Assembly (NCBI GenBank): GCA_001792215.1 | Contig: MGGC01000038.1 | Location: forward strand, 3,555 to 67,554 | From: Candidatus Woesebacteria bacterium RIFCSPHIGHO2_01_FULL_38_10 | Lineage (GTDB): Bacteria > Patescibacteriota > Microgenomatia > UBA8517 | Direction: 5' to 3' | Length of the DNA stretch: 64,000 bases | Part shown: positions 6,540 to 15,374 of the stretch, in pieces | How positions within the stretch are numbered: position 1 is the first letter of the stretch | Layout of the letters: each line of letters begins with the position of its first letter | Notes under the pieces: generated by a model | Database searches by the model: none | The model's input: only the letters and a program-made list of their open reading frames with translations | Told to the model about the DNA's origin: nothing | Made by a program: the position numbers and the translations under genes

Positions 6540-7424
6540 ATGCCCAAAGTAAAATCGGCAAAATCAGTAATCGCCAAAAGCGATGAGGGAACTATTCAAG
6601 TAACCTTTACAATCCCTTTTGAAAAAATTAAAAAAACAAAAAACCTTGTTGCCCAAGAACTTGGAAAAGGAATCCAAATTCCCGGCTTCAGAAAGGGAAA
6701 AGCGCCTCTATCCAAACTTTTAAATCATATTTCCAAAAATACACTTCTTGAAAAAACATTATCGAAACTTCTACCTGAACTTTACTCAGAAATAATTGAT
6801 AAAGAAAAGTTAAAACCAATTGTCCTCCCCAAATTCGAAGTTATAAAAGCAAATGATAATGAAGACTGGGAAATAAGAGCAACTACATGTGAACTACCTG
6901 AATTTGACTTGAATGATTATAAAAGTCAGGTTCAAGGGGCTTTAAGAGCCAAAAGTCTTTGGACCCCCGGAAAAACAGAAGCAAAAAGCCCTAATAAACC
7001 CTTAACTAGAGAGGAAAAAGAGCAGGAAGTAATAAAAACCTTACTTTCTTCGATAAAGATTAGTATTCCCAAAATCCTAATTGACAATGAAGTAGACTCA
7101 AGACTGGCAAAATTCTTACAAAGATTGGAAAGACTGGGTTTGAGTTTAGAATCCTATCTTTCGTCCGTAGGAAAAACCGCAAAAACCATAAGAGAAGAAT
7201 ATGAAAGACAAGCCAGAGAGGCAATTAGTCTTGATTTGATACTAACAAAAATCTCAAAAATAGAAAAAATTGAAGTTAAGAAAGAAAAAATTGATGAAGC
7301 GATAAAAGCAGCAAACGCCGACAGAAAACTGGCTGAAAAACTTGATACTCCTGAACAAAGAAGACTAATTGAGCTGGTCTTAAAAAAAAGGTCAGCACTT
7401 GAATCTTTGGTCGAAGCGATTTGA
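6540..7424 (+). CDS. tig: Trigger factor (short form, no recognisable PPIase domain)
   Basis: TF signature GKGIQIPGFRKGKAPLSKL in the N-terminal ribosome-binding domain; only 294 aa. Confidence 0.75.
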   Translation: MPKVKSAKSVIAKSDEGTIQVTFTIPFEKIKKTKNLVAQELGKGIQIPGFRKGKAPLSKLLNHISKNTLLEKTLSKLLPELYSEIIDKEKLKPIVLPKFEVIKANDNEDWEIRATTCELPEFDLNDYKSQVQGALRAKSLWTPGKTEAKSPNKPLTREEKEQEVIKTLLSSIKISIPKILIDNEVDSRLAKFLQRLERLGLSLESYLSSVGKTAKTIREEYERQAREAISLDLILTKISKIEKIEVKKEKIDEAIKAANADRKLAEKLDTPEQRRLIELVLKKRSALESLVEAI

Positions 7425-7483
7425 ATTCATACTTGCCAAAACCAGTCACTTCTTGGTATAATTCGCCCAAATTAGCCTTTTCC

Positions 7484-8125
7484 ATGAATAAAACCAGTAA
7501 AAATCCAAAACAGCAAAAAGTTGATAAATCAAATAGCCTGGAAGTTTTAAATGAACTTGAAAGTATAGGTAAGTCAGTATCTAAGCAAATACTAGCGGAA
7601 GCAAAAAGTATTCCAGGCGAATTTGTAGATCAGCTCTTTGGAGTAAACTCACAAGCTAAATACTCAGGAGAAATTTCTCCGGGGGAAGCGGTTGAATTCA
7701 GTGAAATTTGGGATAACCAACAGCAGGAAAGAAAAAGGGCGGGAATACAAATTAGATTAGAACGAAAATTCCTAGAAGAAGAAAGAATAAGAGTTGAAAG
7801 AAAAACCAATGAACTAAAAATTGAACTTAAACTTATTCAGGAAGAACTTTTAGTTTTAGCTGAAAATACGCAAGGTCTTGCTGAAGAAACTCAGATCGCC
7901 GCAATGCAGTCTCCTATCGAGCCGGGTCTCTACCACGTCATCTTTTTCGAAAAACTGCTTGAGTTCATTAAATCCTTTGTCAAAAAAGTTGAAGAAGCCT
8001 CGGTTTGGCTACATGCACTTAATAAACGATCCGCCAAGAAAAATGTTTGGGGTGCAAATTATAAAAAATTCGGTGCAAAATATCTTCTTTCCGGAGAGCA
8101 CTACCTGCAAAGATCAGCGGGGTAA
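7484..8125 (+). CDS. Hypothetical coiled-coil protein
   Basis: Track ORF 7421 starts on TTG overlapping the tig stop; first ATG at 7484 (MNKTSKNPKQQ). Charged coiled-coil centre ERKRAGIQIRLERKFLEEERIRVERKTNELKIELKLIQEEL. Confidence 0.45.
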   Translation: MNKTSKNPKQQKVDKSNSLEVLNELESIGKSVSKQILAEAKSIPGEFVDQLFGVNSQAKYSGEISPGEAVEFSEIWDNQQQERKRAGIQIRLERKFLEEERIRVERKTNELKIELKLIQEELLVLAENTQGLAEETQIAAMQSPIEPGLYHVIFFEKLLEFIKSFVKKVEEASVWLHALNKRSAKKNVWGANYKKFGAKYLLSGEHYLQRSAG

Positions 8126-8128
8126 AAA

Positions 8129-8350
8129 ATGAGTAATCAAGAAATACCTAAGGTTCTCTGTCCTAAAGGTTCAGCCTTTGAAGGAATACCCTGCTTGTAT
8201 CCTGAAGGCTGTAGGCACGGGTGTGAAAGGCTAGCAAGAGTATTAGAAACAATAGAATCAAAAAATCCCGGACAACAAATAAGACAAATGCAAAGAAGGA
8301 TTTTAGAAAGGGTTAAAAAACCAAAAGAAGGCGGGACTAAGGCCGAATGA
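8129..8350 (+). CDS. Hypothetical small Cys-containing protein
   Basis: 73 aa with 4 Cys (CPKG...C...C..GC), starts 4 nt after the previous stop; the antisense ORF 8137-8463 looks like noise. Confidence 0.25.
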   Translation: MSNQEIPKVLCPKGSAFEGIPCLYPEGCRHGCERLARVLETIESKNPGQQIRQMQRRILERVKKPKEGGTKAE

Positions 8351-8392
8351 ACTCTTTTTACTTTTCTCCAAGCATCAGTTAAAATAACTCCA

Positions 8393-9760
8393 ATGACTGA
8401 ACAGAACCTTCTTGGTCCGCTTTTACATATTCTCAAAATCCCCAGTGTTTCAACCCAGGACAAACATCTTCCTGAAATGAAAAAGGCAAGAGACTATCTT
8501 GTTAACCTTTTTCAATCAATAGGTTTTAAAACAAAAATTTTAAAAGGCAAAAGGCACGATGCAGTTTTCGCAGAACTTACAACTAACAACCGGCCGGCAG
8601 GCCGGCATGGCCGACAACCTACAACTTTAATATACGGTCACTACGACGTCCAACCTCCTGATCCGATGGGGGAATGGAAGACACCTCCCTTTGAACCAAC
8701 GATCAAACAGGGAAAAATTTACGGCCGGGGAACAACAGACCAGAAAGGCCAATTAATGATTCATATCATGGCTGTTAAAAAACTTTTAAAATCTCGCCCG
8801 AGAGGTGTGAACTTCAAGTTCATTATCGAAGGAGAAGAAGAAATCGGTTCGGTAAGTGTTGAAGAAATTGTCAAAAAATATAAAGATTTATTAAAAGCCG
8901 ACTACTTGGTTGTTTCAGATTCACAAATGCCTGAAGAAGATCAACCTTCGATAGACGTGTCTTTGCGGGGACTTTTATACACCGAAGTAAAAATCCAAAC
9001 CGCAAAACACGATCTCCATTCGGGGCAATTCGGAGGTGCTGCCGAAAATCCCGCAAATCTACTTGCTCATATTATTGCAAAACTCAAAGACGAAAACGGT
9101 AAAATCCTGATTCCTAATTTTTACAAAAACGTTATGAAACCAACCAAAGAAGAACTTAAGGCCTACAAATCATCCGGATTAACAACATCCAAAGTTAAAA
9201 AAGAAGGCGGACTTTATCTTATTGGAGGAGGGGAAAGTGAGCTAAACATGGTCGATCGGATGTGGACCCGACCTACTCTTGATATTAACGGAATATGGTC
9301 CGGTTACACTAATGAGGGAGCAAAAACCATAATTCCAGCTAAAGCCTCAGCCAAAATTTCTATGCGACTTGTACCTAATCAAAATCCTGGCAAAATTTTT
9401 ACAAATTTTGAAGAATATATCAAGAAATTAACTCCTGAGGGGGCAAAAATTACTATTAAAAGACACGCCGATTGCCTGCCTTACAAAGCACCAACTGATG
9501 ATCCAGTCTTTAGTTTAATCAAACAAAGTCTCAAAAAAGCATTTGGGAAATATCCGGTTTTTACCGCGGTCGGGGGATCAGTCGGTTTCGTACCGATAGT
9601 CGCAAGAGAATTAAATATACCCTGCATTTTAGTTGGTTTCGGACTCCCAACGGACAATCTCCACGCACCCAACGAGCACTTTAGTCTATCAAACTACTAT
9701 AAAGGGATAGAGACGATGGAAGATTTTTATTTGAATCTTGACAAAATAGAGGTAAGTTAA
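8393..9760 (+). CDS. M20A-family metallodipeptidase (CNDP/DUG1-like)
   Basis: LIYGHYDVQPPDPMGEWKTPPFEP...GKIYGRGTTDQKG metal-binding block; ~455 aa with dimerisation domain, as in carnosinase/Cys-Gly dipeptidase-type M20A enzymes. Confidence 0.8.
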   Translation: MTEQNLLGPLLHILKIPSVSTQDKHLPEMKKARDYLVNLFQSIGFKTKILKGKRHDAVFAELTTNNRPAGRHGRQPTTLIYGHYDVQPPDPMGEWKTPPFEPTIKQGKIYGRGTTDQKGQLMIHIMAVKKLLKSRPRGVNFKFIIEGEEEIGSVSVEEIVKKYKDLLKADYLVVSDSQMPEEDQPSIDVSLRGLLYTEVKIQTAKHDLHSGQFGGAAENPANLLAHIIAKLKDENGKILIPNFYKNVMKPTKEELKAYKSSGLTTSKVKKEGGLYLIGGGESELNMVDRMWTRPTLDINGIWSGYTNEGAKTIIPAKASAKISMRLVPNQNPGKIFTNFEEYIKKLTPEGAKITIKRHADCLPYKAPTDDPVFSLIKQSLKKAFGKYPVFTAVGGSVGFVPIVARELNIPCILVGFGLPTDNLHAPNEHFSLSNYYKGIETMEDFYLNLDKIEVS

Positions 9761-9892
9761 ATAAAATATCACAAATTCATGACAATTATATCCCTTATCC
9801 TCGTTAACTTTGTCCTCTTTATTGAGGGCTAACTGACGTGGTGAGGGATAGATAACTAACAACCAACAACTAATAACTAACAACCAAAAACA

Positions 9893-9915
9893 CCTCTCAC
9901 CACGAGAGGTTTTTT
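9893..9915 (+). terminator. Rho-independent terminator after the M20A gene
   Basis: CCTCTC-ACCAC-GAGAGG perfect 6-bp stem followed by TTTTTT. Confidence 0.6.
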
Positions 9916-9932
9916 CATTTTTATATACGAAT

Positions 9933-11135
9933 ATGAGTGAAAGAATACAAAAACCACATCTGCCTTACCGACAAGAAGTTGAGAGTGTTGTGGGCGGAGT
10001 TTTAAAGAGATGTCACCCACTTGGTACACTTGCTACCATCTATTATAAAGAGGCGCCTAATTTAATCGCTAAAACTGTTGATGGAAATACTCCAGCACAC
10101 TTAAACCGATTATTTCGAACAAGTCATTTTTCAGATGAAACTTTCAGGGGTATTCTTGAAGCTATGGCACAATGGTCTAATTTTGATGCACAAGTAGCTG
10201 AATCTCTTGTGGCCGAAACAGTACCTTGCTTAATGGCTTGCACATCATTTCTTAAACTTGAGAATGTAAAATCTTCCATGAATATCGGCTGGCAGTTACT
10301 AGCCAAGCAGGTTGGAGAAGGAAAAGTTTCATTAATGTCTCCACTTTGTCCACCCTATGATTACGTAGTCACCAGTAATGGCCATTTAAAACACGCTACC
10401 GGATCACTCCAACCCAAAATCGGGGAAAGATTCGAAACAGTAGCAAAAACGCTTGGAAGAGCATTCAAACCCTTGACAATTAAGGGTGTGGAGGTAACCT
10501 GGGAATTTTGGACTTACTCGGGTGAAACTTTAAACCTAGATGACGTAGTCGATCTTGGTGCAGACGTAATACAACACTATCAACGGCCTGAAGAAATATT
10601 TTCAAATTTACAAGCAGCATACAGAGATCTTAGATATCAGGCAACTCATCACATGAGTGAATTTGGAGTTGTGGCAAAAACAGTATCTATTGAGAATGTT
10701 ATTGGCCCCGTAATTCACCAAACAACAGAAGAATTTATGACTAGTTTCCCTAAAAGTCGGAATGGTATTCATCCTCCTGAAGAACCAGAGATTGATAAAT
10801 GGCTCGATGATAGATTTGGAGTAAAAGCAGGGTGGCTTATTTTTTTTATACAAGAGGAAAAAAGATATAGACAAAAACAAGGTGGGTTGATAGGCGACGG
10901 TAGTGATCCCATTGTTAAGTCAGCTCTACGAGAGGGACTGCTTTATTTGGGAATGACTAGATGGGCAGATCAAAATGGCACATTGATAATTGGTTTGGAA
11001 ACAACACCTGAATACATGGTCGGATCGTTAAGACACAGCCACGCTCCTGTAATTATGGGCGCTGCCTTTGATCCTAAAAAACCAGAGAATCCACTTAATG
11101 TACGCCAACCATTCAATCTACCTGTACGATTATGA
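9933..11135 (+). CDS. Hypothetical protein, unknown family (400 aa)
   Basis: ATG start; no motif I can assign (contains MSPLCPPYDYVVTSNGHLKHATG, HYQRPEE, THHMSEFG); stop overlaps the ATG of the next M20 gene (ATGA). Confidence 0.6.
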   Translation: MSERIQKPHLPYRQEVESVVGGVLKRCHPLGTLATIYYKEAPNLIAKTVDGNTPAHLNRLFRTSHFSDETFRGILEAMAQWSNFDAQVAESLVAETVPCLMACTSFLKLENVKSSMNIGWQLLAKQVGEGKVSLMSPLCPPYDYVVTSNGHLKHATGSLQPKIGERFETVAKTLGRAFKPLTIKGVEVTWEFWTYSGETLNLDDVVDLGADVIQHYQRPEEIFSNLQAAYRDLRYQATHHMSEFGVVAKTVSIENVIGPVIHQTTEEFMTSFPKSRNGIHPPEEPEIDKWLDDRFGVKAGWLIFFIQEEKRYRQKQGGLIGDGSDPIVKSALREGLLYLGMTRWADQNGTLIIGLETTPEYMVGSLRHSHAPVIMGAAFDPKKPENPLNVRQPFNLPVRL

Positions 11136-12274
11136 GGCAATATTCAAAATTAGGCAGTGAGCTGATATTAATAACCAAAAAATTAATGTCATACAAAACC
11201 TTTGCACCTGAAGGTAATGAGTATTTGTGTACAACATATATAAAAAGTCTTATGAATAAAATTGGTTTTAAAGTATCGATTATGGCAAAAAAGAAAGGGA
11301 GAGACAATGTTATTGGTAAAATTGGTACAGGAAACAAATCTCTTGTTATCGCATGTCACATGGATACCGTACCAGCAGGTGAAGGATGGAAATCAAATCC
11401 TAATAAAGCTTTAATTAAAAACGGGAAAATATATGGAAGAGGGGCCATTGATAATAAGGGACCATTCGCAATATCATATTGTTCAATAAAATCTTTTTTA
11501 GAAAAACACCCAAAATTTCCCGGTACCCTATACTTAGTAACTCTGGCAGATGAAGAGAGTGACAACATCTACGGTATTAAATATCTTTTGAAAAAGGGCT
11601 TCAAGGCATCAGCAGGACTAATACCAGACGGTGGATATATGTCTAAAGCTGTTTATGGTGAAAAAGGTTGTTTACAGATAATAATTGAGAGTCTTGGAAA
11701 ACAAGAACATTCCGCACTACAAGAAAAAGGGGTGCATGCGATTAACAATTTACTCTACTTGATTAACTTAATAAAAAAGGGTCTAAAGTATGAAAAATAC
11801 GACAAAAGATTTACTCCATTGAAAATAAATATTAGTAAAATAAAAGGTGGTGATATAGCAAATACCATTCCCGCATATGCTTACTGTCAGATGGATATAA
11901 GATTCCCCATGGGAATAAGTTCAAAACAAGTTTTAAATAATGTTCAAAAAATTGCACAATCCACAGAAAACAAAAAACAGTCTAAATTTAAAATCACCAC
12001 AGTCTATAAAACTGAACCTCATATAGCAAATAATACTCGTCTAATCCAATCACTTAATAAATCCGCGAAAGACATAAATATTAAAATGGATTTCATTACT
12101 ATAGCTGGGAATAGTGTTGCAAAAGAGTTCACTAAAGGAGGCATACCATCAATTGCACACTATCCTATGGAAAAGATTACAGCACATGAACCAAACGAGT
12201 ATATTGAAATAAAAAGTATGATAAAAGCTACAAAACTTTATGAAAAGTTTTTAGAGCACTACTTCTACTCGTAA
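11132..12274 (+). CDS. M20-family metallohydrolase (ArgE/DapE/aminoacylase-like)
   Basis: VIACHMDTVPAGEGWKSNPNKALIKNGKIYGRGAIDNKG metal-binding block; noticeably AT-richer than the coupled upstream gene. Confidence 0.8.
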   Translation: MRQYSKLGSELILITKKLMSYKTFAPEGNEYLCTTYIKSLMNKIGFKVSIMAKKKGRDNVIGKIGTGNKSLVIACHMDTVPAGEGWKSNPNKALIKNGKIYGRGAIDNKGPFAISYCSIKSFLEKHPKFPGTLYLVTLADEESDNIYGIKYLLKKGFKASAGLIPDGGYMSKAVYGEKGCLQIIIESLGKQEHSALQEKGVHAINNLLYLINLIKKGLKYEKYDKRFTPLKINISKIKGGDIANTIPAYAYCQMDIRFPMGISSKQVLNNVQKIAQSTENKKQSKFKITTVYKTEPHIANNTRLIQSLNKSAKDINIKMDFITIAGNSVAKEFTKGGIPSIAHYPMEKITAHEPNEYIEIKSMIKATKLYEKFLEHYFYS

Positions 12275-12650
12275 TTAAAGGACTCTGTACACCCTCCAGG
12301 TGGTATGAATTCATTGTAAAAAACGCTTTCTGTCCCGAAACTTGGTGTTGAATTTAAAGGTTTACCAGTGGGAGTAATAGAAGAGCTATTAAAAAGTTCT
12401 ATGAATCCATAAGAAGAAGATTACGATCGTTTCAAAGATGAAAGAGGAGTTACTTCGGTTAGAGGTTTTTACGAAACGGGATTTGGTACTCTTTCTCATT
12501 GGCTGAAAAAAAGAGCTACTGAATTAATGTCACGGGGATTTAGTTCAGAGGAAGCTATAAAAGATTGTATGGATGACCTAGGTAGAAGTTACCACGAGCA
12601 CTTGGCAAAAATAAATGGACAGGACATTGTCAAATTATTTAGCTAGCTGT
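12275..12650 (+). pseudogene. Decayed ORF (single frame interrupted by two TAA codons, no usable start)
   Basis: One frame reads ...LKDSVHPPGGMNSL*KTLSVPKLGVEFKGLPVGVIEELLKSSMNP*EEDYDRFKDERGVTSVRGFYETGFGTLSHWLKKRATELMSRGFSSEEAIKDCMDDLGRSYHEHLAKINGQDIVKLFS* with TAA at 12317-19 and 12410-12. Confidence 0.3.
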
Positions 12651-12749
12651 ATACTAGCCTTTAATGTCTAAGAAATTAATCAGCTTTTTCTTTTTTGCAT
12701 TTAACCCCACAAAGGCGGGGTAGATACCTATTTTGAATTATGAGGTGTT

Positions 12750-12771
12750 CCCCGCGAAAGCGGGGTTTTTT
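12750..12771 (+). terminator. Rho-independent terminator-like hairpin
   Basis: CCCCGC-GAAA-GCGGGG then TTTTTT, ending 6 nt before the ATG at 12778; a related hairpin CCCCACAAAGGCGGGG lies at 12705-12720. Confidence 0.5.
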
Positions 12772-12777
12772 ATTTGC

Positions 12778-14466
12778 ATGGGAGCCGAAAGATCAATACA
12801 AATAAATTCCATATCAGAAGCTAAAGCATTGGGTAATGGTGGAGAAATAGCGTTAGGAAACCAGGAAGAAGGAGGTTTAGTTGTTTCTCCAGAAGGAACA
12901 CTTTATGCCTTAAAACATAGAAGGTTCAGACTTAATGGTCGCAAGCCAGGTGATTACACGAGTTCTGATCTCGTACCAGTTTGCTACCGCATAGACCCCT
13001 TACCAAGTGGTGAAGAAACAAGACAAACAGTAACTGCTTGGTTAGAAAGTTTACGGAAAGGAGAAATTCCAGAACATGCAACGGTCGGAGTAGAGGTAGA
13101 GGCTACCTGTTATGATAGAAATTATAAGCTCCTCTCTCCCTACAATGATACTTTTCCTGCCCAGACTTATAATCATCCGGAGCTCCATTCATTTACTTTA
13201 GAAACAGCTACTAGCGAAAACAGCAGCTGTTTACCCAAAACTCCAGTCGAAACTGCGAGAGCAATAGCCAATGCTGTGCTCGATGGCTATAAAATTGTTA
13301 AACCAAGAGGTGGTCAACTAGCATATTCTTCCGTAGCAGAAGCCGGAGACGGAAATAACGCATCGACTACGCCTCATCCGTACTTAATTACCTTTGCACC
13401 GTTAATAGCACAATTTACATTGGATAACATTAATACTGTTCCTCCTGAAACACTTGAAATGTATGAAAGAGCTTATATCGACGTCGTTGGGCAAATGCAA
13501 AAAGGTGTCCTCAATTGGCCGGTAAATGCTCTTCACGTTCATACGGGAGTTCCACAAATAGAAGGTTTGGCCGATCCACGAGCCGCTCATGCTTGTGGAC
13601 TCGTTAAACTTACTGAATTTTCTAAGGTCCTCTCCTTAATGCTTTATAACACGAGACATTTATACGGAGTTGAATTGGGGGGAAAGGATGTTCGTTCAAT
13701 TGTAAGACGTCTCATTGTAAGTTCACATGATGCAACGATTCCTCAAGATACTGAAACTCTGGTGCAAAAAGCTTTACAGCAACTGCGAGAGGGAAAAATT
13801 CACAGCCTTCCAAGATACCCTGACACTGGGCAGCACGACCGTATGAGACTCCGGATGGATGGAAATAAAAAAACAGTCGAATCAATTGATGCTCCCATGA
13901 ATTCTGATCTACGGCTTGTTTTGTTCTGGGTTTTTGCAAACCAACTAAAAGATATTATCGCCCTAGATGCTCTAGAAGCTGTCGGAGGTGATACTTCTCA
14001 AGTAATACTTTATTTAAAGCAAAAGTGGGGAGAAATATTTCAAGTTATTCCAACCATGGGAGCCAATTCAAGTTACGAGCAAGATATTGAATTTAACCAA
14101 CTTGGATATGATGGTAAATCTAGCCTAAGAGGAATACCTTTTGCTAAAGTTCTAAGAGACGTGAAGATAATAATAACCCACTATGGGGATATCTATCCGG
14201 CGGTTGCGTTTGAGGCAGAAGTAATTATAAAAACAATCGACAGACAGCTTACGCCACCAACCCACGGAATAACACTTCAACAATACCTTGGAGTTGAAAC
14301 TGGTGTTTATATGCCTAATGGGCTAAATAATGGATTAGTCACAGATTATAAATACACAGATCCTAAACTAATAGTAAATATACAATCTGCTGCAACAAGA
14401 CTTCAAGCAGAAGCTTTATCAAAAATGACTGACGAAAAGGATTTGAAAGGATTCCTTGGCATTTAA
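12778..14466 (+). CDS. Large divergent protein with GCS2/YbdK-like (carboxylate-amine ligase, glutamate-cysteine ligase family 2) motifs
   Basis: Track start 12733 is TTG inside the terminator hairpin; ATG at 12778 (MGAERSIQ). Blocks TVGVEVEATCYD, NALHVHTGVPQ and HDRMRLRMDG recall the GIELEMQ / QHVHVG / VEVRVMD blocks of YbdK-type ligases. ~566 aa is much longer than YbdK. Assignment is from memory and tentative. Confidence 0.5.
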   Translation: MGAERSIQINSISEAKALGNGGEIALGNQEEGGLVVSPEGTLYALKHRRFRLNGRKPGDYTSSDLVPVCYRIDPLPSGEETRQTVTAWLESLRKGEIPEHATVGVEVEATCYDRNYKLLSPYNDTFPAQTYNHPELHSFTLETATSENSSCLPKTPVETARAIANAVLDGYKIVKPRGGQLAYSSVAEAGDGNNASTTPHPYLITFAPLIAQFTLDNINTVPPETLEMYERAYIDVVGQMQKGVLNWPVNALHVHTGVPQIEGLADPRAAHACGLVKLTEFSKVLSLMLYNTRHLYGVELGGKDVRSIVRRLIVSSHDATIPQDTETLVQKALQQLREGKIHSLPRYPDTGQHDRMRLRMDGNKKTVESIDAPMNSDLRLVLFWVFANQLKDIIALDALEAVGGDTSQVILYLKQKWGEIFQVIPTMGANSSYEQDIEFNQLGYDGKSSLRGIPFAKVLRDVKIIITHYGDIYPAVAFEAEVIIKTIDRQLTPPTHGITLQQYLGVETGVYMPNGLNNGLVTDYKYTDPKLIVNIQSAATRLQAEALSKMTDEKDLKGFLGI

Positions 14467-14580: not shown

Positions 14581-15052
14581 GTCTATTTCAGGATACAAAG
14601 AATTCGTAGCAAACCAGAAAGATTACCAAAGGAAATTGTCTAAAATTAAACACCTTTTACTCGACTAGGTGAGGCCTGTAAACACAGTGCGCCCGACGGG
14701 TGGTAGTCTGGACCCTTTTACAAGGCATGGAAAAAGACTCTGTCCACTATTCCTTGATCAATTTAAAGCCGTAGCTGTAGAAACTGACGAACAACTTATC
14801 CACCTTAGCCGATACATTCATCTTAATCCATATTCTTCACATGTTGTTAAAACAGTCGAAGAGCTGACAGAATACCTATGGTCGTCGTTTGAAGAATACA
14901 TCAAGCCGAAAAACAAAAACGTTTGTGATACAGGCATAATATTGTCTTTATTTAATCACAATGCCAAGCTAATCCACCTCCCAGGTGGATTCTCCATAAG
15001 GAAAATTAAGATTGATGATCTTTGGATTAGAAGTTATAATACTTATTACCAA
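14581..15052 (+). pseudogene. Remnant of a Y1 (IS200/RAYT-like, PF01797-type) tyrosine transposase, frameshifted and N-terminally truncated
   Basis: ORF 14669-15088 (GTG start) contains RYIHLNPYSSHVVKTVEELTEYLWSSFEEY, matching the YIHxNPV...YxWSS C-terminal block of REP-associated/IS200-like Y1 transposases. The upstream frame 14581-14668 reads ...KIKHLLLD* (possible HUH remnant). The ORF runs into tRNA-Val. Confidence 0.55.
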
Positions 15053-15129
15053 GGACGGTTAGCTCAGCTGGCTAGAGCGTTCGCTTGACGTGCGAAAGGT
15101 CGGGGGTTCAAGTCCCTCACCGTCCACCA
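15053..15129 (+). tRNA. tRNA-Val (anticodon GAC), CCA encoded
   Basis: Folded by hand: acceptor GGACGGT/ACCGTCC, D-stem GCTC/GAGC, anticodon stem TTCGC/GCGAA with loop TTGACGT, T-arm GGGGG-TTCAAGT-CCCTC, discriminator A, CCA. Confidence 0.9.
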
Positions 15130-15215
15130 GCTTACCCACCGGTTTGAAAAAATCAGTTTTGGTAAGGGTCCATGGCGCAACTGGTTAGCATGCTTGGCTG
15201 GGTACGTACATTTTG

Positions 15216-15287
15216 GGGCCCCTCGTTCAACGGTCAGGACACCTGGCTGGCAGTCAGGTAATAGGAGTTCGATTCCCCTGGGGTCCA
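15216..15287 (+). tRNA. tRNA-Ala (anticodon GGC), CCA not encoded
   Basis: Acceptor GGGCCCC/GGGGTCC with the G3-U70 wobble that marks Ala; D-stem GTTC/GGAC; anticodon stem CCTGG/TCAGG, loop CTGGCAG; T-arm AGGAG-TTCGATT-CCCCT (one A-C mismatch); discriminator A. Confidence 0.8.
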
Positions 15288-15374
15288 CAATAATTGTACG
15301 TACTTGGCAGTCAGGAGATCGGAGACTTGGGATGTTAGACGTTCTTCGACTCCCTCTAAATCCACAGCATAAAA

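What the first reader, a model, noticed from the sequence alone, without database searches (positions are those of the whole stretch)
9933..12274. Unknown 400-aa protein translationally coupled to an AT-richer M20 hydrolase
The 9933-11135 ORF has a clean ATG start and 400 codons, but I cannot assign any family motif. Its stop overlaps the start of the downstream M20 gene (ATGA), which implies co-expression. The M20 gene is visibly AT-richer than its partner, which hints at mosaic origin. An unknown enzyme-sized protein sitting next to amide-bond hydrolases is a candidate for the partner activity (substrate synthesis, modification or transport) in an uncharacterised pathway.
Basis: seen in the sequence. 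Interest (0 to 1): 0.5.

Follow-up and report, generated by a model that had tools for sequence, protein, structure and literature searches.

The report
Attenuator-controlled orphan enzyme plus M20 operon
The unknown 400-aa protein founds a very rare enzyme family found only in ultra-small "CPR" bacteria; it has the fold of tRNA-synthetase-like peptide-making enzymes, always sits just upstream of an M20 amide hydrolase, and is switched on by a newly recognised amino-acid-sensing leader.

Summary
In detail: ORF A (9933-11135, 400 aa, no Pfam/NCBIfam/PDB sequence match) overlaps the start of a DapE/ArgE-type M20 gene (11132-12274) by ATGA. The M20 gene is AT-richer, but only at codon positions 1 and 2 (GC3 0.26 vs 0.27), and the same offset recurs in all 8 loci compared, so mosaic origin is not supported.

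An M20 gene follows in 12 of 13 loci, and 3 of 3 loci reached from the M20 side have an ORF A homologue upstream.

Newly found: 12 of 13 loci carry a promoter, a near-leaderless Ile/Leu/Val-rich small ORF, and trp-type alternative helices ending in a terminator 6-17 nt before the gene. A second, Phe-rich leader controls the next gene.

Best reading (function inferred): a starvation-induced two-step pathway that releases hydrophobic amino acids from a blocked derivative.

The parts
9738..9767 (+). Promoter-like site: TTGACA (9738-9743), 18-nt spacer, TAAAAT (9762-9767)
   Evidence: Best sigma-70-like match in 8200-12900, 11 of 12. Both hexamers align across the leaders of the relatives. The small-ORF ATG lies 7-13 nt after the -10 box in most loci, which implies a leaderless or near-leaderless small ORF (inference).
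9779..9832 (+). Leader small ORF, MTIISLILVNFVLFIEG* (17 codons, 9 of them Ile/Leu/Val)
   Evidence: Related small ORFs sit at the same position in 12 of 13 loci, e.g. L013 MRNLSLIMNFVLFIEG*, L001 MRNISLTLINFVLFMGA*, L006 MNLRNFIIVSILLFTRGV*. Ile is the most frequent residue at the predicted sensing positions.
9789..9850 (+). Helix P1 (segment 1, 9789-9806, pairs with segment 2, 9834-9850), enclosing an inner hairpin at 9812-9829. The small-ORF stop codon (9830-9832) sits just 5' of segment 2
   Evidence: MFE fold z = -5.75 against dinucleotide shuffles. RNAalifold recovers the helix, and 13 of 32 pairs show compensatory double changes. The 1:2 duplex beats at least 999 of 1000 shuffles in 6 of 8 leaders.
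9837..9904 (+). Antiterminator: CGUGGUGAGGG (9837-9847) pairs with CCUCUCACCACG (9893-9904), 11 bp. This is mutually exclusive with both P1 and the terminator
   Evidence: Read directly from the sequence. It forms in constrained folds when a ribosome is placed on codons 2-12. In the relatives the pairing is rebuilt from different nucleotides: L003 GGTCTGACG/CGTCAGACC, L006 GGGUCUGAC/GUCAGAUCC, L007 GGTCTAAC/GTTAGACC, L009 GGGGGTTA/TAACCCCC.
9892..9915 (+). Intrinsic terminator ACCTCTC-ACCAC-GAGAGGT plus a T6 run, ending 17 nt before the ORF A start codon
   Evidence: Terminator scan. Local fold dG = -10.4 kcal/mol. An equivalent terminator lies 6-17 nt before the gene start in the relatives. 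Only 4 such terminator-before-ATG sites exist in the whole 64-kb window.
9933..11135 (+). ORF A: 400-aa founding member of an undescribed family. N-terminal helical domain (about residues 13-128) plus a class-Ic aaRS/CDPS/PvcA-like Rossmann catalytic domain (about 130-376) and a conserved C-terminal RQPFN tail
11132..12274 (+). Translationally coupled M20 metallo-hydrolase of the ArgE/DapE deacylase type (380 aa)
   Evidence: PF01546 + PF07687. TIGR01910 236.5 bits, above the 217.6 cutoff, while every DapE or ArgE equivalog model scores below its cutoff. Best PDB relative is DapE 7uoi at E 3e-25, with the HxD, bridging Asp, EE and C-terminal His motifs aligned. Partner orthologues are 55-59% identical to each other. 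The subfamily has about 35 clusters, all from Microgenomates-type CPR bacteria.
8393..9760 (+). Upstream M20 dipeptidase (455 aa), a frequent but not obligatory neighbour
   Evidence: NF006053 dipeptidase, 457 bits against a cutoff of 441. A second M20 gene also flanks the pair in L007 (upstream), L013 (upstream) and L006 (downstream), but is absent in L001, L009 and L012.

Best explanation
This is a conserved three-part module of Microgenomates-group CPR bacteria: (1) a leader-peptide transcription attenuator, (2) ORF A, and (3) a translationally coupled M20 deacylase.

Shown:
- ORF A is a real, strongly constrained protein of a previously undescribed, very rare family.
- Its catalytic domain has the class-Ic aminoacyl-tRNA-synthetase-like Rossmann fold shared by TyrRS/TrpRS, cyclodipeptide synthases and PvcA/Dit1.
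- It lacks the ATP-binding HIGH/KMSKS motifs and matches none of those families by sequence.
- It is almost always followed by one particular DapE/ArgE-like M20 subfamily.
- The pair is preceded by a promoter, a small Ile/Leu/Val-rich ORF and three mutually exclusive helices ending in a terminator.

Inferred regulation: when charged Ile/Leu/Val-tRNA is scarce, the ribosome stalls in the middle of the small ORF and covers segment 1. Segment 2 is then free to pair with the 5' half of the terminator, and RNA polymerase reads into ORF A and the M20 gene. When the ribosome reaches the stop codon it masks segment 2; with no ribosome, P1 sequesters segment 2. In both cases the terminator forms.

Inferred function: all structural relatives hold an alpha-amino acid or aminoacyl group in an equivalent pocket and act on its alpha-N or carbonyl. 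The partner is an N-acyl-amino-acid/dipeptide hydrolase, the host is presumably an amino-acid auxotroph (general knowledge of CPR bacteria, not checked for this genome), and induction is by hydrophobic amino-acid starvation. So the pair most likely carries out a two-step release of hydrophobic amino acids from a blocked derivative, such as a cyclic dipeptide or an N-substituted amino acid. ORF A would do the first, ATP-independent step, possibly through covalent catalysis on the invariant Cys139 with His154 and Glu334/Glu356. The M20 enzyme would then hydrolyse the remaining amide.
For: Gene reality and rarity.

No HIGH/KMSKS in the catalytic domain.

The invariant residues sit at the C-terminal ends of the parallel strands (CPPY after strand 131-137, TYSGE after 187-194, LETT after 351-354) and in helix 327-348 (LREGLLY). 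By topological order these are the elements that line the AlbC/TyrRS amino-acid pocket (beta3, beta4, beta6, alpha7). AlbC alpha7 reads LRAGLNY(178) against LREGLLY(338). The AlbC S37C variant still forms the acyl-enzyme, so a Cys nucleophile is chemically plausible in this fold.

Pairing: 12 of 13 loci, and 3 of 3 in the reciprocal test.

Attenuator: on/off pattern in 7 of 8 leaders analysed; 13 of 32 pairs compensatory; the layout is rare in the window. Sensing-position residues are I 17, L 10, V 8 of 63.

Independent support for amino-acid sensing: the next gene has a pheL-like leader, MSKKLISFFFFAFNPTKAG*, with the same architecture.
Against: - No substrate or activity is shown. The salvage direction rests on the regulatory logic and on the partner's family.
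- Residue-level equivalence of Cys139 to CDPS Ser37 could not be tested, because no model coordinates or structural alignment were available. Ser136, at the exact strand end, is not conserved.
- The M20 partner's best matches are DapE/ArgE-type deacylases, not known dipeptidases, and no DKP-opening enzyme of this fold is known.
- The hydrophobic composition of the leader peptide could partly be a by-product of the pyrimidine-rich strand needed to pair with the G-rich segment 2.
- Attenuation is predicted from thermodynamic folding only. One leader (L010) shows the switch weakly, and in L009 the unconstrained fold already prefers the antiterminator.
- L004 lacks the leader, and L011 lacks the M20.
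Confidence: 0.45

Rival explanations
1. Biosynthetic reading. ORF A is a synthase: either CDPS-like, using aminoacyl-tRNAs to form a dipeptide, cyclodipeptide or aminoacyl conjugate, or PvcA/Dit1-like, converting the alpha-amino group of an amino acid into an isonitrile or N-formyl group with a sugar phosphate. It would make a small metabolite or signal, and the M20 enzyme would tailor, mature or recycle the product.
For: The closest structures are exactly these synthases. ORF A lacks ATP motifs, as CDPS and PvcA do. Two invariant arginines (R313, R391) could bind a phosphate of tRNA A76 or of ribulose-5-phosphate (inference). A CDPS from a Parcubacteria bacterium has been crystallised (7qau), so such chemistry does exist in CPR.
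Against: No sequence relation to CDPS or DIT1_PvcA profiles. ORF A is 400 aa with an extra helical domain and, in some members, a 250-aa N-extension, against about 230 aa for CDPS. The helix equivalent to the basic tRNA-binding alpha4 of AlbC is not basic. No Fe/2OG dioxygenase, P450, cyclodipeptide oxidase or other tailoring gene appears in any of the 13 loci. Induction when tRNAs are uncharged would be paradoxical for an enzyme that consumes aminoacyl-tRNA.
Confidence: 0.25
2. ORF A is a non-catalytic, pseudo-synthetase-like amino-acid-binding subunit that regulates, targets or stabilises the M20 hydrolase, for example through product feedback.
For: Strict pairing and translational coupling, which favour 1:1 stoichiometry. 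The fold is an amino-acid-binding scaffold lacking the ATP motifs.
Against: About 30 invariant polar or aromatic residues (Cys, His, 3 Glu, 2 Arg, 7 Tyr) located at catalytic-site positions are more typical of an enzyme. The M20 partner is better conserved (55-59%) than ORF A (33-44%), with no sign of a degenerate pocket in ORF A. L011 carries the family member without the M20.
Confidence: 0.1
3. The leader senses drug-induced ribosome stalling or aaRS inhibition rather than nutritional starvation, and the operon detoxifies a translation-targeting aminoacyl-type antibiotic. ORF A would bind the aminoacyl-adenylate mimic and the M20 enzyme would cleave it.
For: uORF-plus-terminator leaders are a common way to induce resistance genes (established knowledge). 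An aaRS-like pocket would suit aminoacyl-nucleotide mimics (inference).
Against: The neighbouring gene has a classical Phe-run leader, which points to amino-acid-specific sensing. No transporter, acetyltransferase or other resistance gene is linked. The nucleotide-binding motifs are absent.
Confidence: 0.07
4. One reading: the M20 gene was acquired separately (horizontal transfer) and fused to an unrelated resident gene.
For: M20 total GC is 0.322, 2.4 sd below the window's gene mean.
Against: GC3 is the same in the two genes (0.260 vs 0.274). The same offset occurs in all 8 loci compared, and the pair is conserved across Woesebacteria, Collierbacteria and relatives, with congruent divergence.
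Confidence: 0.03

Closest known systems
Cyclodipeptide synthases (CDPS; AlbC 3OQV, Rv2275, YvmC; Pfam CDPS)
   Different: No detectable sequence homology (hhalign probability 0.1%, no Pfam hit even at E<=10). ORF A is 400 aa against about 230. It has an extra 115-aa N-terminal helical domain, a beta-hairpin insertion (142-159) and a conserved RQPFN tail. The strand-end Ser is not conserved, while a Cys three residues later is invariant. There is no basic alpha4 helix. It is never linked to cyclodipeptide-tailoring genes and is always linked to an M20 hydrolase.
PvcA / Dit1 isonitrile and N-formyl-tyrosine synthases (Pfam DIT1_PvcA; 3E59)
   Different: No profile match. TM-score is only 0.34-0.41. 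No PvcB/IsnB-type Fe/2OG dioxygenase or P450 partner occurs in any locus. The partner here is a hydrolase.
Class-Ic aminoacyl-tRNA synthetases (TyrRS, TrpRS)
   Different: No HIGH or KMSKS motif and no anticodon-binding domain. ORF A is not a housekeeping synthetase.
Leader-peptide transcription attenuators (trpL, pheL, ilvL/ivbL, leuL, hisL)
   Same: A small ORF enriched in the regulatory amino acids, 1:2 / 2:3 / 3:4 alternative helices, the small-ORF stop codon next to segment 2, and an intrinsic terminator directly before the regulated gene.
   Different: No match to any Rfam leader family (Phe_leader scores 15 bits against a gathering score of 55). It is found in CPR bacteria, where I found no report of such leaders. 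The small ORF appears to be leaderless or near-leaderless (ATG 7-13 nt after the -10 box). It controls a putative salvage or hydrolase operon, not a biosynthetic one. In some relatives the 3' arm of the terminator doubles as the GGAGG Shine-Dalgarno sequence of the gene.
ArgE/DapE family M20 deacylases (TIGR01910), for the partner gene
   Same: Scores above the subfamily cutoff. It has both the catalytic and the dimerisation domains, and the metal and catalytic motifs are conserved.
   Different: It scores below the cutoff of every DapE, ArgE, LysK or PepV equivalog model. It forms a CPR-restricted subfamily of about 35 clusters that occurs next to ORF A homologues.

Membership tests
Cyclodipeptide synthase (CDPS) | Sequence match to the family profile or to a member | tested here: not met
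   No CDPS Pfam hit for any of 23 members at E<=10. hhalign of the family profile against verified AlbC gives probability 0.1%. A PDB profile search finds no CDPS.
Cyclodipeptide synthase (CDPS) | Class-Ic aaRS-like Rossmann fold lacking HIGH and KMSKS | tested here: met
Cyclodipeptide synthase (CDPS) | Catalytic Ser at the end of strand beta3, plus Tyr178, Glu182 and Tyr202 (AlbC numbering) | tested here: inconclusive
   No residue-level structural alignment was available. By topology, Ser136 at the strand end is not conserved, while Cys139 is invariant. Tyr338 in LREGLLY plausibly corresponds to Tyr178 in LRAGLNY. No Glu lies four residues after it. Glu356 and Tyr361 follow the strand equivalent to beta6.
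Cyclodipeptide synthase (CDPS) | Single domain of about 220-250 aa with a basic tRNA-binding helix alpha4 | tested here: not met
   ORF A is 400 aa, or 655-663 aa in the long forms, with an extra helical domain. The equivalent helix 219-244 (EEIFSNLQAAYRDLRYQATHHMSEFG) is not basic.
Cyclodipeptide synthase (CDPS) | Uses two aminoacyl-tRNAs to make a cyclodipeptide | not testable with these tools
   Needs biochemistry.
DIT1_PvcA isonitrile / N-formyl synthases | Match to the PF05141 profile | tested here: not met
   No hit at E<=10 in any of 23 members.
DIT1_PvcA isonitrile / N-formyl synthases | Fold similarity to PvcA (3E59) | tested here: met
DIT1_PvcA isonitrile / N-formyl synthases | Genomic partnership with an Fe/2OG dioxygenase (PvcB/IsnB) or a P450 (Dit2) | tested here: not met
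   None in the 13 loci examined.
Class I aminoacyl-tRNA synthetase | HIGH and KMSKS ATP-binding motifs, plus an anticodon-binding domain | tested here: not met
   Motif scan of all members. No aaRS Pfam or NCBIfam hit.
ArgE/DapE family M20 deacylase (partner gene 11132-12274) | Score above the TIGR01910 cutoff, M20 catalytic and dimerisation domains, metal-ligand motifs | tested here: met
   236.5 bits against a cutoff of 217.6. PF01546 + PF07687. The HxD, bridging D, EE and C-terminal H motifs align with DapE 7uoi.
DapE (succinyl-diaminopimelate desuccinylase) proper | Score above an equivalog cutoff | tested here: not met
   Best scores are 179.5 against a cutoff of 289 (NF006365) and 160 against 284 (NF009557).
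Leader-peptide transcription attenuator (trp/phe/ilv type) | Small translated ORF enriched in the sensed amino acids, upstream of the regulated gene | tested here: met
   A small ORF of 16-36 codons is present in 12 of 13 loci. In the 8 leaders analysed, I+L+V make up 35 of 63 residues at the predicted sensing positions. Translation itself is not shown.
Leader-peptide transcription attenuator (trp/phe/ilv type) | Mutually exclusive 1:2, 2:3 (antiterminator) and 3:4 (terminator + U-run) helices, with the stop codon next to segment 2 | tested here: met
   The antiterminator is rebuilt from different nucleotides in different loci.
Leader-peptide transcription attenuator (trp/phe/ilv type) | Membership of a curated Rfam leader family | tested here: not met
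   Best match is Phe_leader at 15.1 bits against a gathering score of 55, E 5.5. Nothing in the window reaches gathering threshold apart from two tRNAs.
Leader-peptide transcription attenuator (trp/phe/ilv type) | Starvation-dependent read-through of the terminator | not testable with these tools
   Needs Term-seq or reporter assays.

The most novel reading that the evidence does not exclude
ORF A founds a fourth functional class of class-Ic aaRS-like enzymes, beside the synthetases, the CDPSs and PvcA/Dit1. In this reading it is an ATP-independent, Cys-dependent enzyme that opens or transfers a blocked amino-acid derivative. The most attractive candidate substrate is a 2,5-diketopiperazine, which would make the reaction the reverse of the last CDPS step. 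ORF A would feed a dedicated M20 hydrolase, and the pair would give amino-acid-auxotrophic CPR bacteria a starvation-induced route to hydrophobic amino acids. The operon would be governed by the first leader-peptide attenuators described in the Candidate Phyla Radiation.
Probability: 0.25. Interest if true: 0.8.

Novelty: new variant of a known kind. Interest (0 to 1): 0.62.

Why it matters
1. It defines a new, structurally confident protein family in the synthetase-like superfamily that has already produced two unexpected chemistries: tRNA-dependent cyclodipeptide synthesis and isonitrile formation. About 30 invariant residues give clear targets for mutagenesis.

2. The obligatory M20 partner and the amino-acid-sensing leader provide a concrete, testable physiological frame: scavenging of hydrophobic amino acids by organisms that are generally held to be amino-acid auxotrophs. 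They also point to an enzymology whose genes are poorly known; a 2013 review states that little is known about diketopiperazine degradation (PMC3852281).

3. Two adjacent leader-peptide attenuators, one Ile/Leu/Val-type and one Phe-type, show that classical ribosome-mediated attenuation operates in CPR bacteria. Here it runs from near-leaderless small ORFs and controls orphan genes rather than biosynthetic operons. Leader codon content therefore becomes a tool for guessing the substrates of unknown CPR genes.

Tried and rejected
- Pfam, NCBIfam and PDB sequence searches of ORF A, of the family profile and of every member gave nothing relevant.
- hhalign of the family profile against AlbC found no relation.
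- The AFDB Foldseek library was unavailable.
With the 5-sequence alignment it found one locus, an undercount, because later look-ups found more NCBI MAGs.
- The roughly 250-aa N-terminal extension of the long forms was modelled in the hope of a fused-domain clue. The model was unusable (pLDDT 42) and was not searched.
- Family pI as a proxy for tRNA binding does not discriminate: the family mostly falls between 4.7 and 6.4, and AlbC is 5.76.
- The extra ORF in L010 has only a weak HAD-like hit (E 4e-3) and is not related to ORF A.
- Rfam search of the leader found no family.
- Literature searches for CPR attenuators and for CPR plus CDPS returned nothing.
- Mosaic or HGT origin of the M20 gene was rejected on GC3 and on cross-locus consistency.
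- The hydantoinase/carbamoylase analogy was considered and set aside, because the M20 partner matches ArgE/DapE-type models, not carbamoylase-type models.
Full report
**1. Checking the observation**

- The two ORFs are as described: 9933..11135 (ATG, 400 aa) and 11132..12274 (380 aa) on the + strand. They overlap in ttATGAggc.
- ORF A has no Pfam or NCBIfam match, nothing relevant at E<=10, and no sequence match in the PDB.
- The downstream gene is an M20 metallo-hydrolase. It has PF01546 + PF07687 and scores 236.5 bits on TIGR01910 'ArgE/DapE family deacylase' against a cutoff of 217.6. Every DapE, ArgE or PepV equivalog model is below its cutoff.
- Its closest solved relative is DapE (7uoi, E 3e-25), and the metal and catalytic motifs align.
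- The M20 gene is indeed AT-richer: GC 0.322 vs 0.403 for ORF A, against a window gene mean of 0.392 +/- 0.029.

**2. The 'mosaic origin' idea fails**

- GC3 is the same in the two genes (0.260 vs 0.274).
- The M20 protein is basic and Lys/Asn/Ile-rich (pI 9.6).
- M20 has lower GC than ORF A in all eight loci compared, by 0.027-0.081.
- The offset is therefore a property of the encoded proteins, not of separate ancestry.

**3. ORF A is a real gene of a very rare family**

- A word-indexed search of 5.8 billion clusters found five relatives.
- An exhaustive HMM search of 1.84 billion representatives found 34 at E<=1e-3, of which 25 are at E<=1e-30.
- None of the 29 family members scanned has any Pfam domain.
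- Members are 27-46% identical to ORF A. Ignoring gaps, they share these invariant residues: P98, C139-P140-x-Y142, Y144, H154, G157, G164, Y195-x-G197, Y216, F272, W290, E309, Y312-R313, E334, Y338, E356-x-T358, Y361 and R391-Q-P-x-N395.
- Every host that can be named is a Microgenomates-group CPR bacterium: Woesebacteria and Collierbacteria.
- The window's own neighbours fit that origin. They include a DUF5660 gene and a trigger factor with N and C domains only, in synteny with L001 and L012.

**4. Fold**

- An AlphaFold2 model built on a 23-sequence alignment is confident: pLDDT 94, pTM 0.92.
- It has an N-terminal helical domain (about 13-128) and an alpha/beta domain (about 130-376).
- Foldseek ranks PvcA and CDPS first, at weak E-values.
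- There is no HIGH or KMSKS motif in the catalytic domain and no sequence relation to AlbC (hhalign probability 0.1%).
- The secondary-structure order matches AlbC element for element (my reading).
- The invariant residues fall at the C-terminal ends of the parallel strands and in helix 327-348. These are the elements that line the amino-acid pocket in AlbC and TyrRS.
- The motif LREGLLY(338) resembles AlbC's LRAGLNY(178), which carries a catalytic Tyr. This is suggestive only.

**5. The partnership with M20 is the rule**

I examined 13 distinct loci carrying a family member.
- An M20 gene follows in 12 of them. The 4-nt overlap occurs in the window, L004, L005, L012 and L013. Gaps of 3-13 nt occur in L001, L003, L006, L007, L009 and L014. 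In L010 one extra ORF intervenes.
- The exception is L011, a remote member followed by a convergent VanY gene.
- The M20 partners are 55-59% identical to each other. They form a CPR-restricted subfamily of about 35 clusters at 44% identity or more.
- Starting from three such M20 proteins on long contigs, each was directly preceded by an ORF A family member (hmmsearch E 1e-113 to 1e-152).
- A second M20 gene often lies nearby: the window's 8393-9760 dipeptidase, and second M20 genes in L007, L013 and L006.

**6.

Between the upstream gene and ORF A lie, in order:
- the best promoter-like site of the region, TTGACA-18-TAAAAT at 9738-9767, 11 of 12;
- a small ORF, 9779-9832, encoding MTIISLILVNFVLFIEG*;
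- a long helix P1 (9789-9806 with 9834-9850) enclosing a hairpin;
- a G-free, CAA-rich linker;
- an intrinsic terminator (9892-9910 plus T6), ending 17 nt before the ORF A start.

The evidence that this is a working switch:
- The fold has z = -5.75.
- Segment 2 (9837-9847) can instead form 11 bp with the 5' half of the terminator (9893-9904).
- The same layout occurs in 12 of 13 loci, and the peptides are clearly related.
- The antiterminator is rebuilt from different nucleotides in different loci.
- RNAalifold on five leaders recovers P1, the inner hairpin and the terminator, and 13 of 32 pairs show compensatory double changes.
- I placed a 28-nt ribosome footprint on each codon in turn. The terminator is predicted to be lost only when the A site is on mid-ORF codons, and kept for the last six or more codons and the stop. 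This holds in 7 of the 8 leaders analysed.
- Residues at those sensing positions are I 17, L 10, V 8, N 7 and F 5 of 63.
- The small-ORF start lies 7-13 nt after the -10 box in most loci. That implies leaderless or near-leaderless translation (inference).
- No Rfam family matches.
- The terminator-before-ATG layout occurs at only four sites in the 64-kb window. Two of them are leaders; the other two involve ATGs inside longer ORFs.

**7. Independent support from the next gene**

- The downstream gene's real start is ATG 12778, giving 562 aa. This is confirmed by a 99%-identical 562-aa database protein.
- It is preceded by TTGTCA-17-TATACT, a small ORF (12664-12723) encoding MSKKLISFFFFAFNPTKAG*, CCCC/GGGG alternative pairings, and the terminator at 12750-12765.
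- In the ribosome scan, the terminator is disrupted on codons 2-13, which include all five Phe codons, and is intact from codon 14 onwards.
- A pheL-like leader next door makes amino-acid-specific attenuation the natural reading of the first leader.

**8. Mechanism**

Shown:
- the anatomy of the module;
- conservation of the gene pair and of the leader;
- the fold, and the absence of the ATP motifs.

Inferred:
- Ile/Leu/Val scarcity stalls the ribosome in the small ORF, which frees segment 2, prevents termination, and allows coupled synthesis of ORF A and M20.
- On function, every structural relative holds an alpha-amino acid or aminoacyl group and acts on its alpha-N or carbonyl.
- The partner is an N-acyl-amino-acid/dipeptide-type hydrolase.
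- CPR bacteria are generally amino-acid auxotrophs (established knowledge; not checked for this genome).
- I therefore favour a two-step release of hydrophobic amino acids from a blocked derivative. ORF A would perform an ATP-independent first step, such as ring opening or transfer. This could run through the invariant Cys139, since AlbC S37C is active, so a thiol works in this fold. M20 would perform the final hydrolysis.
- A cyclic dipeptide is an attractive substrate, but it is unproven. Genes for diketopiperazine degradation are poorly known (PMC3852281).

Rivals, weighed in the report sections:
- a biosynthetic CDPS-like or PvcA-like role;
- a non-catalytic partner of the M20;
- a drug-sensing detoxification operon.

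**9. Verdict**

The finding is real and more interesting than first described. It is a new family in a known fold superfamily, in an obligate pair with a dedicated M20 hydrolase, under a new member of a known regulatory class that I did not find reported for CPR bacteria. The function remains inferred. I rate it a new variant of a known kind, with interest 0.62.

Noticed in passing
window 12627-14466 (+): A second leader-peptide attenuator. It has the promoter-like site TTGTCA-17-TATACT, a small ORF at 12664-12723 encoding MSKKLISFFFFAFNPTKAG* (pheL-like, 5 Phe in 6 codons), and the terminator CCCCGC-GAAA-GCGGGG-T6 at 12750-12771. The real gene start is ATG 12778, not TTG 12733. The 562-aa product is another orphan: no Pfam hit even at E<=10, no PDB hit, and 41 'hypothetical' homologues in Roizmanbacteria/Patescibacteria. 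By eye, the motifs VGVEVE...HPELHSFTLE...ALHVHTG recall GCS2/YbdK-type carboxylate-amine ligases. That resemblance is from memory only and is untested.
   Followed up: partly
window 9851-9890 (+); also L001 about 7925-7960: The linker between P1 and the terminator is a roughly 40-nt CAA-rich tract with almost no G (AACTAACAACCAACAACTAATAACTAACAACCAAAAAC). It is unstructured, C-rich and G-poor, so it resembles a Rho-utilisation site. It is absent or much shorter in L003, L006 and L007.
   Followed up: no
L005 about 805-822; L010 about 2140-2157: In some relatives the 3' arm of the terminator is GGAGG, lying 12-14 nt before the main ATG. The terminator hairpin would therefore also sequester the gene's Shine-Dalgarno sequence, adding translational control to transcriptional control. 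The window's ORF A has no recognisable Shine-Dalgarno sequence in the 17 nt between the T-run and the ATG.
   Followed up: no
P0004, P0006, P0021; L006 5125-7125; L013 2031-4004: Long forms of the family (655-666 aa) carry a conserved, beta-rich N-terminal extension of about 250 aa. It has no Pfam match, and its AF2 model was unusable (pLDDT 42).
   Followed up: partly
L010 3927-4994: A variant operon in which a 355-aa ORF sits between the remote ORF A homologue P0024 (590 aa, with large insertions) and the M20 gene. The ORF has only a weak HAD-hydrolase-like hit (E 4e-3). An alpha/beta-hydrolase gene lies upstream of the leader.
   Followed up: partly
window 6540-7424 and 7421-8125 (+): The trigger factor is only 294 aa, with Trigger_N and Trigger_C hits but no PPIase-domain hit, and it scores below the TIGR00115 cutoff. 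It overlaps by 4 nt the start of a DUF5660 gene. The same trigger factor-DUF5660 pair precedes the operon in L001 and L012, and a DUF5660 gene precedes it in L009.
   Followed up: no
window 8393-9760; L007 227-1564; L013 686-1759; L006 8313-9386: Additional M20 peptidase genes cluster around the ORF A-M20 pair in several genomes: a 445-455-aa dipeptidase type upstream, and a 357-aa type upstream or downstream. This suggests a local amide-hydrolase neighbourhood.
   Followed up: partly
window 15053-15288 (+) and 14669-15088 (+): tRNA-Val(GAC) and tRNA-Ala(GGC) lie between the orphan 562-aa gene and thrS. The 139-aa ORF at 14669-15088 has a weak REP-associated tyrosine transposase hit (E 0.002), and its end overlaps the tRNA-Val gene.
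   Followed up: no
L007 1580-1660: In this relative the small ORF starts with GTG about 47 nt after the -10 box. An extra small hairpin followed by a T-run (TAGCC-TAAT-CGGCT-GG-T6) lies between the promoter and the small ORF. This differs from the near-leaderless layout of the other loci.
   Followed up: no
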